Shown: positions 30,319 to 30,469 of the stretch, one piece after another
How the letters are laid out: the number at the start of each line of letters is the position of its first letter
Position numbering within the stretch: the stretch's first letter is position 1
From: Promethearchaeota archaeon
GTDB lineage: Archaea; Asgardarchaeota; Lokiarchaeia; Sigyniarchaeales; SOKP01
Direction: 5' to 3'
Assembly: GCA_011364975.1 (NCBI GenBank)
Contig: RDOE01000033.1
Location: forward strand, 1 to 36,876
DNA: 36,876 bases
Translations under genes and position numbers: made by a program
Notes under the pieces: generated by a model
The model's input: only the letters and a program-made list of their open reading frames with translations
Databases searched by the model: none
Told to the model about the DNA's origin: nothing

Positions 30319-30469
30319 CCCCCCATAGCTCAGTTGGTCAGAGCGCGCGGCTGTAGATAATATCGCGCAACGAGGCATAAGCCCATGAAGTTGCGTCAGC
30401 CGATACCGTGAGGTCCCCGGCTCAAATTTACGTTTCATATTGAAAGTGATGAGGATCCGGGAGGGGGGA
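30319..30469 (+). tRNA. tRNA-Tyr(GUA) with two introns (30357-30404 at 37/38; 30427-30455 at 59/60)
   Basis: Acceptor CCCCCCA/AGGGGGG with discriminator A; D arm GCTC-AGTTGGTCA-GAGC; anticodon stem CGCGG/CCGTG with CT-GTA-G|A; variable loop AGGTC; T stem CCCGG/CCGGG. C1-G72 and A73 are the archaeal Tyr identity elements. No encoded CCA; a T-run follows. Confidence 0.93.

What the first reader, a model, noticed from the sequence alone, without database searches (positions are those of the whole stretch)
30348..30410. tRNA-Tyr anticodon intron looks like a self-targeting H/ACA-type guide for pseudouridine 35
Seen: intron CAGCCG (30397-30402) is perfectly complementary to exon CGGCTG (30348-30353), which ends immediately before U35. 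Intron ATC (30362-30364; TATC if acting in trans) pairs with GAT(A) (from 30356), which starts right after A36. U35-A36 is thus left unpaired at the base of an upper stem GCGCAAC/GTTGCGT (30365-30371/30390-30396). That stem is capped by a K-turn-like motif: GA, GGC-ATAA-GCC, 3-nt bulge CAT, GA. Established: this bipartite pocket with unpaired UN, upper stem and K-turn is the geometry of archaeal H/ACA guides bound by Cbf5/L7Ae. Psi35 is the classic intron-dependent modification of tRNA-Tyr, and H/ACA guidance of it has been proposed in Sulfolobales/Aeropyrum. Inference: the intron is an embedded guide. This fold excludes the anticodon stem and the weak 37/38 BHB (which has a U.C mismatch), suggesting a modify-first, splice-later switch. 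Caveat: no ACA box sits 14-16 nt downstream (AGG is found there).
Basis: partly seen in the sequence, partly recalled or inferred. Interest (0 to 1): 0.9.

Follow-up and report, generated by a model that had tools for sequence, protein, structure and literature searches.

The report
Pseudouridine guide inside tRNA-Tyr intron
The intron of this archaeal tyrosine tRNA gene carries a conserved kinked hairpin whose two flanks pair around anticodon base U35 just as a pseudouridine guide RNA would, so the intron may direct modification of its own tRNA before it is spliced out.

Summary
Window 30319-30469 is a tRNA-Tyr(GUA) gene with two introns that ARAGORN and Rfam miss.

The 37/38 intron (30357-30404) holds a K-turn hairpin. 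Its 3' flank, CAGCCG, pairs with exon nucleotides 29-34. Its 5' flank, UC, pairs with G37 and the first intron base. U35 and A36 are left unpaired at a three-way junction.

I parsed 93 distinct homologues and read ten more; together they come from ten families of the phylum.
- The hairpin stems covary.
- The pair between intron base 1 and the base two before the hairpin takes the forms A-U, G-C, U-A and G.U.
- The strand between the K-turn GA and the 3' arm is 8 nt in 86 of 93.
- In 21 of 31 long-tailed introns a separate strand forms the splicing helix, yet the arm is kept.

So there are two exclusive folds, a guide-like fold and a splicing fold. The missing ACA box is not disqualifying. ACA-less guides without a lower stem work in Sulfolobus islandicus and modify themselves in cis (PMC11077068).

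Against the guide reading, Pus7/TruD looks intact, and no modification data exist. I put Cbf5-guided Psi35 at about 0.5.

The parts
30319..30469 (+). tRNA-Tyr(GUA) gene with two introns. Acceptor strands are 30319-25 and 30462-68; discriminator A is 30469.
   Evidence: Read by hand. ARAGORN and Rfam find nothing. Homologues at about 80% identity occur in 28 of 36 other genomes of the genus. Versions lacking intron 2 fix the mature sequence.
30348..30353 (+). Exon positions 29-34 (CGGCUG): the strand that pairs with the intron's 3' arm (helix B).
   Evidence: RNAalifold predicts this helix. In A3 the 30-34 pairs are standard pairs in 52-60 of 60 rows.
30354..30355 (+). U35 and A36: the two unpaired junction nucleotides. 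U35 is the proposed target.
   Evidence: They lie between helix B, which ends at G34, and the G37:C pair. This geometry matches the H/ACA rule quoted in PMC11077068.
30356..30358 (+). G37 plus intron bases 1-2 (GAU): the strand that pairs with the 5' arm.
   Evidence: G37:C(-1) holds in 93 of 93. The i1:(-2) pair is A-U 81, G-C 8, U-A 2, G.U 1 and a mismatch in 1. One search gives the same picture.
30357..30404 (+). Intron 1 (48 nt), at position 37/38.
   Evidence: The only boundaries that restore the anticodon arm. The BHB central helix has 3 of 4 pairs here.
30362..30364 (+). 5' guide arm (A)UC, directly abutting the upper stem.
   Evidence: C(-1) is invariant and U(-2) covaries with intron base 1.
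30365..30396 (+). K-turn hairpin: 7-nt and 8-nt stem strands, GA, a 3-bp C-stem with a 4-nt loop, bulge CAU, GA, and an extra A at 30389.
   Evidence: Five of 7 stem pairs and 2 of 3 C-stem pairs show changes on both sides in A2. All 10 do in A3. The 3' strand is 8 nt in 86 of 93. A canonical H/ACA sRNA of the same genome has the same hairpin plan.
30397..30402 (+). 3' guide arm CAGCCG, directly abutting the upper stem.
   Evidence: The arm forms 5 or more contiguous pairs with exon 34 downward in 79 of 93. It is kept even where a separate BHB strand exists. Position 29 covaries with arm base 6: C-G 42, U-A 9.
30399..30404 (+). The same bases read in the splicing register: GCCG pairs with C32-U35 (with the U33.C mismatch), and AU is the 3' bulge before A38.
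   Evidence: The 'W-Wg' pattern occurs in all 62 sequences with an 8-nt tail.
30427..30455 (+). Intron 2 (29 nt) in the T-loop at 59/60. The boundary is ambiguous by one T. It has a clean hBHBh' motif.
   Evidence: CTCA 30421-24 pairs with TGAG 30450-53. The intron is absent from eight relatives, L020, L021 and L024-L028, and L029 carries a different insertion in the T-loop.

Best explanation
The 37/38 intron of tRNA-Tyr(GUA) is an atypical H/ACA-type pseudouridylation guide embedded in its own target. 'Atypical' here means it has no lower stem and no ACA box.

How I think it works:
1. In the nascent pre-tRNA the intron's K-turn hairpin forms and binds L7Ae.
2. The 3' arm (CAGCCG) pairs with positions 29-34. 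This displaces part of the anticodon stem.
3. The 5' arm (UC) pairs with G37 and the first intron base.
4. The result is a three-way junction that leaves only U35 and A36 unpaired at the foot of a 9-10-layer 'GA stem'.
5. L7Ae-Nop10-Cbf5-Gar1 docks on it as on a guide-substrate complex, and Cbf5 converts U35 to Psi35.
6. The RNA then refolds into the anticodon stem plus bulge-helix-bulge form, and the splicing endonuclease removes the intron.

Action in cis is favoured. The excised intron would also look like a free atypical guide, so it could act in trans on other precursors.

What is shown: the conserved, covarying structure, the two exclusive folds, and the presence of the enzymes. What is inferred: L7Ae binding, Cbf5 catalysis and the order of events.
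For: STRUCTURE
- The fold is the MFE, at -59.0 kcal/mol against -53.0 with the anticodon stem enforced and -49.5 with the BHB helix added.
- RNAalifold predicts it on an unfitted alignment.
- On A2 (37 rows) 90.5% of cells pair against 85.1% in shuffles, and the covariation score is 0.225 against 0.126, with 0 of 500 shuffles reaching either.
- On A3 (60 rows) the figures are 92.2% against 78.1% and 0.393 against 0.152, again 0 of 500. Slid controls reach at most 63%.

JUNCTION
- G37:C(-1) holds in 93 of 93.
- The i1:(-2) pair is A-U 81, G-C 8, U-A 2, G.U 1, mismatch 1. More U-A and G-C cases occur in families f10 and f27.
- That pair cannot be explained by the BHB, where intron base 1 sits in the bulge.
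- The arm abuts the hairpin and pairs from G34 downward, with 5 or more pairs in 79 of 93.
- Position 29 covaries with arm base 6 (C-G 42, U-A 9). A31 is matched by U in L197.

ARM NOT EXPLAINED BY SPLICING
- In all 62 short-tail introns the arm is perfect for helix B, but it leaves a U33.C mismatch in the BHB register.
- In 21 of 31 long-tail introns a separate strand pairs 4 of 4 with C32-U35, and the arm is retained anyway.

RULER
- The strand from the K-turn GA to the arm is 8 nt in 86 of 93 and 9 nt in 7 of 93, although the sequence has fully diverged and both K-turn and K-loop versions occur.
- This gives 9-10 pairs plus one unpaired base. PMC4652768 reports 10 layers for productive guides (sections read).
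- A canonical H/ACA sRNA of the same genome (contig C76, 24448-24525, minus strand) has the same hairpin plan with 8 + 8 nt.

SPECIFICITY
- A strict hairpin descriptor hits only this intron and one other site in 3.7 Mb.
- Thirteen K-turn-less tRNA-Tyr introns from seven other families show no consistent arm arrangement.

MACHINERY AND PRECEDENT
- Cbf5, Nop10, Gar1 and L7Ae-family genes are all present.
- PMC11077068 passages report ACA-less guides that work in vivo and in vitro, one guide with only a 3' arm and a 6-bp duplex, and cis modification of a guide's own 5' region.
- Psi35 of pre-tRNA-Tyr is H/ACA-guided in Sulfolobales (PMC2651775 sections; PMC11077068).
- An A at K-turn position 2n still binds L7Ae (start of the PMC3985660 abstract, in the listing).
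Against: - There is no direct evidence for Psi35, L7Ae binding or Cbf5 action. No RNA data could be obtained.
- TruD/Pus7, the usual Psi35 enzyme, is a full-length 464-aa ORF with the catalytic Asp and the motif IIIa basic residue. Only the second residue of the basic pair is changed, to KC.
- TruD is found in 143 of 151 genomes of the phylum.
- Its motif II state does not track the module: a basic pair is kept in 12 of 21 module-bearing genomes and 12 of 20 others. A guide therefore seems redundant.
- There is no ACA/ANA box 14-16 nt downstream (AGG) and no lower stem.
- The 5' duplex is only 2-3 bp. It cannot form in cis in L022, which has a 2-nt loop, or in L197, which has a 4-nt linker.
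- K-turn position 2n is A in 56 of 93 sequences.
- Family f17 carries an A.C mismatch in the arm. L113 has 3 extra nt between stem and arm.
- GA-stem length varies by one layer between lineages.
- The sequences are kin, so the shuffle tests overstate support. The exon side of helix B is fixed by tRNA function, which leaves few positions free to covary.
Confidence: 0.5

Rival explanations
1. The K-turn hairpin and helix B are an L7Ae-bound folding or timing device. It holds the precursor in a non-spliceable fold, or presents U35-A36 to an enzyme. The stand-alone Pus7/TruD makes Psi35 and Cbf5 plays no part.
For: - TruD is intact here and nearly universal in the phylum.
- TruD motif state does not correlate with the module.
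- The two exclusive folds by themselves only show a switch.
- L7Ae binds many K-turn RNAs. This last point is general knowledge, not a call.
Against: - It does not explain why both flanks abut the hairpin with exactly U35-A36 unpaired.
- It does not explain why the GA-to-arm strand keeps 8 nt across ten families.
- It does not explain why the hairpin copies the upper half of the genome's own H/ACA sRNA.
- In this fold U33 and G34, which are part of the Pus7 consensus as I recall it, are base-paired.
Confidence: 0.27
2. The intron is a guide only after excision. The released linear or circular intron is a free atypical H/ACA sRNA. It acts in trans on other pre-tRNA-Tyr molecules, and the cis fold is incidental.
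For: - The excised intron would be a K-turn hairpin with two single-stranded arms, which is the description of atypical guides (PMC4652768 introduction; PMC11077068).
- In L022 and L197 the 5' duplex cannot form in cis.
- In trans the window's 5' arm gives 4 bp.
- The tRNA-Trp intron C/D guide was later judged to act in trans (PMC7994747 passage).
Against: - The cis fold is the MFE by 6 kcal/mol, so a trans guide would have to compete with it.
- The loop between intron base 1 and base -2 is 4-7 nt in 90 of 93 sequences, which suits a cis hairpin.
- Cis action has a precedent.
Confidence: 0.15
3. The hairpin is a C'/D'-like box motif, and the intron guides 2'-O-methylation, as the tRNA-Trp intron does in Euryarchaeota.
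For: The bulged strand reads NRUGA, like the start of a C box, and the other strand ends in RA. An intron-borne C/D guide has precedent.
Against: - There is only one K-turn and no second box pair.
- The 7-8 nt next to the boxes pair with each other instead of being free guides.
- The D-like strand is mostly AA.
Confidence: 0.03
4. The complementarity is a chance by-product of BHB formation and has no function of its own.
For: In the 62 short-tail introns the arm overlaps the BHB strand.
Against: - The arm is kept in 31 long-tail introns, and 21 of them have a separate, fully pairing BHB strand.
- The i1:(-2) pair covaries.
- The module is conserved across ten families.
Confidence: 0.03

Closest known systems
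Atypical ('H/ACA-like') archaeal guide RNAs: Pyrobaculum sR203-210 and S. islandicus sR109, sR136, sR148, sR563
   Same: - A K-turn hairpin flanked by two single-stranded guide arms, with no lower stem and no ACA box.
- The target U and the next base are left unpaired at the foot of the hairpin.
- The 3' duplex is dominant and short, about 6 bp.
- Cis modification of the guide's own 5' region is documented.
Sources: PMC4652768 sections and PMC11077068 passages.
   Different: - Those are free-standing sRNA genes that mostly target rRNA in trans. This one lies inside the intron of its own target.
- Here the 5' duplex is closed by a short loop.
- This one must unfold for splicing.
- It occurs in a different phylum, and no experiment exists for it.
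Classic H/ACA sRNAs Sso1 and sR115 that guide Psi35 of pre-tRNA-Tyr in Sulfolobales and Aeropyrum
   Same: The same target uridine. The guide pairs across the exon-intron boundary of the precursor, so the modification depends on the intron (PMC2651775 sections; PMC11077068).
   Different: [quoted passage not shown]
- They occur where aPus7 has lost motif residues. Here Pus7 looks competent.
Box C/D guide in the pre-tRNA-Trp intron of Euryarchaeota
   Same: A modification guide with an L7Ae-binding K-turn is carried in the 37/38 intron of the tRNA that it modifies (PMC7994747 passage).
   Different: It belongs to a different guide class, giving methylation by fibrillarin, and has two box pairs. 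It modifies positions 34 and 39.
Canonical H/ACA sRNA of the same genome (contig C76, 24448-24525, minus strand)
   Same: The upper hairpin has the same plan: 8 nt, GA, C-stem and loop, NAU bulge, GA, 8 nt.
   Different: - It has a 7-bp lower stem and an ACA box 14 nt from the upper stem.
- The ACA is kept in only 10 of 18 aligned relatives.
- It is a free-standing gene whose arms are not complementary to tRNA-Tyr.

Membership tests
Classic archaeal H/ACA guide RNA | ACA (ANA) box 14-16 nt 3' of the pair that closes the upper stem | tested here: not met
   AGG stands at 30411-13 and GAG at +14. No box is conserved at that position in the relatives' sequences.
Classic archaeal H/ACA guide RNA | Lower stem of 7-9 bp closing the pocket | tested here: not met
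   The 5' arm is closed by a 2-9-nt loop and the 3' arm runs on into the tRNA body.
Atypical H/ACA-like guide RNA | Hairpin with a K-turn or K-loop whose NC stem faces the pocket, and a GA stem of about 10 layers (8-13 reported) | tested here: met
   The stem has 7 + 8 nt or 8 + 8 nt plus two G.A/A.A pairs, which makes 9-10 pairs plus one unpaired base. The 3' strand is 8 nt in 86 of 93. Stems covary.
Atypical H/ACA-like guide RNA | Two arms abutting the hairpin that pair with the target and leave U plus one base unpaired | tested here: met
   Arm with exon 30-34(29), and UC with G37 and i1. U35-A36 are unpaired. Counts come, and the prediction.
Atypical H/ACA-like guide RNA | Binding of L7Ae and Cbf5-Nop10(-Gar1), and guide-dependent pseudouridine formation | not testable with these tools
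   Only the genes were found.
Kink-turn (L7Ae site) | C-stem, 3-nt bulge, tandem G.A/A.G pairs, NC stem | tested here: inconclusive
   The bulged strand reads NRU-GA in 92 of 93. The other strand is GA in 37 and AA in 56 of 93. An AA variant is known to bind L7Ae (start of the PMC3985660 abstract, in the listing). Folding was not tested.
Archaeal BHB tRNA intron | Two 3-nt bulges separated by a 4-bp helix at the splice sites | tested here: met
   The form is relaxed. The central helix has 3 of 4 pairs here and in all 62 short-tail introns, and 4 of 4 in 21 of 31 long-tail introns. There is no inner helix. Intron 2 has the full motif.
Box C/D guide RNA | C/D and C'/D' box pairs with free 10-12-nt guides next to D and D' | tested here: not met
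   There is one K-turn only, and the adjacent strands pair with each other.

The most novel reading that the evidence does not exclude
It would be a cis-acting, ACA-less H/ACA element whose guide fold and splicing fold exclude each other, which enforces 'modify first, splice later'.

That would be the first pseudouridylation guide found inside a tRNA intron. It would also offer an evolutionary reason why Psi35 of tRNA-Tyr depends on the intron in eukaryotes, and why that intron is so persistently kept.
Probability: 0.45. Interest if true: 0.9.

Novelty: new variant of a known kind. Interest (0 to 1): 0.78.

Why it matters
- It would add a second class of modification guide, H/ACA alongside box C/D, to the things that archaeal tRNA introns encode.
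- It would extend atypical ACA-less guides beyond Crenarchaeota.
- It gives a concrete, testable RNA switch that orders modification before splicing.
- These archaea have heavily interrupted tRNA genes and may be Asgard. A weak profilin hit is consistent with that but below the family cut-off. If they are, the module bears on an old puzzle: why the tRNA-Tyr intron and the intron dependence of Psi35 are conserved in eukaryotes.
- The module is also a practical marker. A covariance model of it finds tRNA-Tyr genes that standard annotators miss.

I found no description of it in print in five full-text searches. A 2026 preprint on Asgard tRNA introns contains none of the words Tyr, K-turn, kink, L7Ae, pseudouridine or ACA.

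Tried and rejected
1. RNA evidence. The look-up of sequencing runs listed no RNA holder of the stretch.

3. Pus7-loss correlation, as seen in Sulfolobales. I fetched the N-terminal TruD region from 40 genomes. The basic pair after the catalytic Asp is kept in 12 of 21 module-bearing genomes and 12 of 20 others, so there is no signal.

4. Genome-wide H/ACA descriptor. It gave 113 candidates against 85 in the reversed-genome control, which is noise. Only the C76 candidate was kept, because it is conserved. I did not find other atypical guides.

5. The GUGAUGA in intron 2 first looked like a C box. It is the BHB strand: TGAG pairs with the T-loop CTCA. No GA faces it. Rejected.

6. An alternative BHB using CAGC with 31-34 would give an 8-nt anticodon loop. 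Rejected by hand.

7. 'Helix B is ancestral to all tRNA-Tyr introns.' Thirteen K-turn-less introns show no consistent arm or G37 pairing. Not supported.

8. Naming the organism. The search for related loci returned only an uncultured archaeon and an unrelated bacterium. The profilin hit is below the cut-off.

9. Automated parsing.
- It failed on 4 of 97 sequences. I re-parsed those by eye.
- It is ambiguous for the three f19 sequences and for L211. The C-G pair claimed for L211 and the G-C pair claimed for L198 rest on my by-eye parses only.
- The 7/8 versus 8/8 split overcounts 8/8 for some g18 rows.

The supplements of PMC4652768 and PMC11077068 (structures of the atypical guides) could refine the GA-stem comparison.
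Full report
WHAT IS THERE

Window 30319-30469 (+) is a tRNA-Tyr(GUA) gene. It is interrupted twice.
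- Intron 1 is 48 nt at position 37/38 (30357-30404).
- Intron 2 is 29 nt in the T-loop at 59/60 (30427-30455).

Default ARAGORN and Rfam gathering thresholds report nothing in the window. ARAGORN in intron mode finds only 22 tRNAs in the whole assembly and none is Tyr. The assembly is 3.74 Mb, 30.6% G+C and 99% complete.

Intron 2 has a textbook hBHBh' motif. T-loop CTCA pairs with TGAG, with 3-nt bulges on both sides.

Intron 1 does not. In the splicing register its central helix is C32-G, U33.C, G34-C, U35.G, and there is no inner helix.

THE OBSERVATION

Enforcing the anticodon stem gives -53.0. Adding the BHB central helix gives -49.5.

COMPARATIVE EVIDENCE: HOW THE SEQUENCES WERE GATHERED

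1. A DNA search of 61 related genomes found the gene at about 80% identity in 28 of 36 other genomes of the genus.
2. An exon-1 pattern found it in two more genera of the family.
3. I built a covariance model of the anticodon arm plus intron (R1). It hit 35 of 41 genomes of a further genus. It also hit 48 of 151 genomes drawn across the phylum.
4. A second pattern search gave 20 more loci.

In all, 93 distinct sequences carrying the module were parsed. Ten more were read. Together they come from ten families: f1, f2, f9, f10, f15, f17, f19, f27, f30 and f32.

Thirteen tRNA-Tyr introns from seven other families (f8, f11, f13, f16, f22, f25, f26) have no K-turn hairpin.

COMPARATIVE EVIDENCE: WHAT IS CONSERVED

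(a) The hairpin.
- On the MAFFT alignment A2, 5 of 7 upper-stem pairs and 2 of 3 C-stem pairs show changes on both sides.
- On A3 all ten do. A3 was fitted to the model's hairpin, so it leans that way.
- The bulged strand reads NRU-GA in 92 of 93. The facing dinucleotide is GA in 37 and AA in 56.
- Some families have K-loop versions (UGA-loop-UGA) instead.

(b) A ruler.
- The strand between the 3' GA and the arm is 8 nt in 86 of 93 and 9 nt in 7.
- The 5' strand is 7 or 8 nt.
- The single unpaired base moves along the stem from lineage to lineage, but the length holds.

(c) The 5' junction helix.
- The base before the hairpin is C in 93 of 93 and pairs with G37.
- The base before that pairs with intron base 1: A-U 81, G-C 8, U-A 2, G.U 1, one mismatch.
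- One search gives AU 44, GC 8, UA 2, GU 1 and other 5 of 60. The five 'other' rows are four hairpin-less f8 rows and L106.
- Three more U-A cases occur in f10, and one U-A and one G-C case in f27.
- Switches occur within families: f10 has A-U and U-A; f17 has G-C and A-U; f27 has A-U, G-C, U-A and G.U.
- Helices 1 and 2 were not part of the model's structure, so these counts are not fitted.

(d) The 3' arm.
- It starts right after the hairpin and pairs from G34 downward, with 5 or more contiguous pairs in 79 of 93.
- Where the exon varies, the arm follows. Position 29 with arm base 6 is C-G 42 and U-A 9. It is G-C in L211, and A31-U occurs in L197.
- RNAalifold on the unfitted A2 alignment predicts this helix rather than the anticodon stem.

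THE ARM IS NOT JUST THE SPLICING STRAND

In the 62 introns with an 8-nt 3' tail, the same six bases serve both registers. They are perfect for helix B but leave the U33.C mismatch in the BHB. A single C-to-A change would mend the BHB, yet it is never seen.

In the 31 introns with longer tails, the arm still abuts the hairpin. In 21 of them a separate four-base strand lies two bases before A38 and pairs 4 of 4 with C32-U35.

So two mutually exclusive pairings of positions 30-35 are both maintained: a guide-like fold and a splicing fold.

COMPARISON WITH H/ACA RULES

Passages of PMC11077068 state the rule. The bipartite guide flanks the upper stem and forms two 3-10-bp duplexes around the target U and its unpaired 3' neighbour. 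L7Ae binds a K-turn in the upper stem.

PMC4652768 (sections read) reports that the 'GA stem' has 10 pairs or stacked layers in all productive guides. It reports 8-13 for Pyrobaculum H/ACA-like RNAs, which lack the lower stem and sometimes any ANA box.

Here the GA stem is 9-10 pairs plus one unpaired base, and U35-A36 are the only unpaired junction bases.

The same genome has a canonical H/ACA sRNA on contig C76 (24448-24525, minus strand). It has a 7-bp lower stem and ACA at 14 nt. It is conserved in 21 of 24 other genomes of the genus. Its upper hairpin has the same plan: 8 nt, GA, C-stem, NAU, GA, 8 nt. Its ACA is kept in only 10 of 18 aligned relatives.

Classic membership fails, because there is no ACA and no lower stem. 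Membership of the atypical class is met on every structural feature.

The function of that class is established. In S. islandicus four ACA-less guides work in vivo and in vitro, one with only a 3' arm and a 6-bp duplex. Two of them are pseudouridylated by Cbf5 in their own 5' region through 2-4 bp with their own 3' guide. That is the cis topology proposed here.

Cbf5, Nop10, Gar1 and two L7Ae-family genes are present.

EVIDENCE AGAINST

- TruD/Pus7 is a full-length ORF.
- Aligned to M. mazei TruD and yeast Pus7, it keeps the catalytic Asp and the motif IIIa basic residue. The pair after the Asp reads K-C instead of K-R or R-R.
- In PMC2651775 (sections read), loss of activity needed changes in both motifs.
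- TruD occurs in 143 of 151 genomes of the phylum. The motif II state is unrelated to the module, at 12 of 21 against 12 of 20.
- So the Sulfolobales logic, where a guide rescues a dead Pus7, does not apply, and Pus7 may make Psi35 here.
- The 5' duplex is very short and cannot form in cis in two sequences.
- Family f17 has an A.C mismatch in the arm, and L113 has three extra bases at the junction.
- All sequences are relatives, so shuffle statistics overstate support.
- No RNA data were available.

VERDICT

The structure is solid: a conserved three-way junction built on a K-turn hairpin, alternating with the splicing fold. I put it at about 0.9. L7Ae binding is likely.

That the junction is a substrate for Cbf5, making the intron a self-targeting atypical H/ACA guide for Psi35, is the best single explanation at about 0.5.

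Two rivals remain:
- an L7Ae-dependent folding or timing device, with Pus7 as the enzyme (about 0.27);
- a guide that acts only in trans after excision (about 0.15).

I found no description of such an intron in five literature searches, nor in the 2026 preprint on Asgard tRNA introns. I rate it a new variant of a known kind.

Noticed in passing
window 30427-30455: Second intron, in the T-loop at 59/60, with a perfect hBHBh' motif (CTCA/TGAG). Among the 28 genus homologues eight lack it (L020, L021, L024-L028) and L029 carries a different T-loop insertion. That suggests recent gain or loss.
   Followed up: partly
window 30325 and 30462: The acceptor-stem pair 7-66 is an A.A mismatch in this copy. 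Relatives have U-A or A-U there. Only one tRNA-Tyr locus was found in the genome.
   Followed up: no
window 30421-30427: The T-loop reads CUCAAAU, with C rather than U at position 54. Most genus homologues share the initial C; a few differ elsewhere in the loop (CUCGAAU, CUCAAGU) and L029 is interrupted there.
   Followed up: no
G000 contig C76, 24448-24525 (minus strand); locus L168: A canonical single-hairpin H/ACA sRNA: 7-bp lower stem, 8-nt and 7-nt pocket strands, 10-bp GA stem with a K-turn, and an ACA box. It is conserved in 21 of 24 other genomes of the genus. The ACA is replaced by ACU or GCU in 8 of 18 aligned copies. Its target was not sought.
   Followed up: partly
whole genome G000: ARAGORN with intron search finds only 22 tRNAs in a 99%-complete 3.7-Mb genome, and many of them have introns. 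The tRNA genes are heavily interrupted and under-annotated.
   Followed up: no
loci L193, L203-L210, L114-L121: The K-turn-less tRNA-Tyr introns of other families share a different conserved 3' block, roughly GCGCUCNUACAG followed by AA before A38, and a 5' hairpin. It is a second intron class of unknown meaning.
   Followed up: partly
L043 (G122), L102 (G007), L044/L045 (G088, G102): G122 has a second, intronless tRNA-Tyr-like gene. G007 has two module-bearing copies about 1 kb apart, one with a different 5' context. G088 and G102 carry a third intron in the variable region.
   Followed up: no
G000 contig C171, 13146-14456 (minus strand); locus L031: In TruD/Pus7 the pair after the catalytic Asp reads K-C. 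Across the phylum this pair is very variable (KR, RR, KK, HR, KC, KV, HT, AS, AH, AQ, KT, SN, KL, KF, KD, RE, KQ, KE, RN), while the motif IIIa basic residue is kept.
   Followed up: partly
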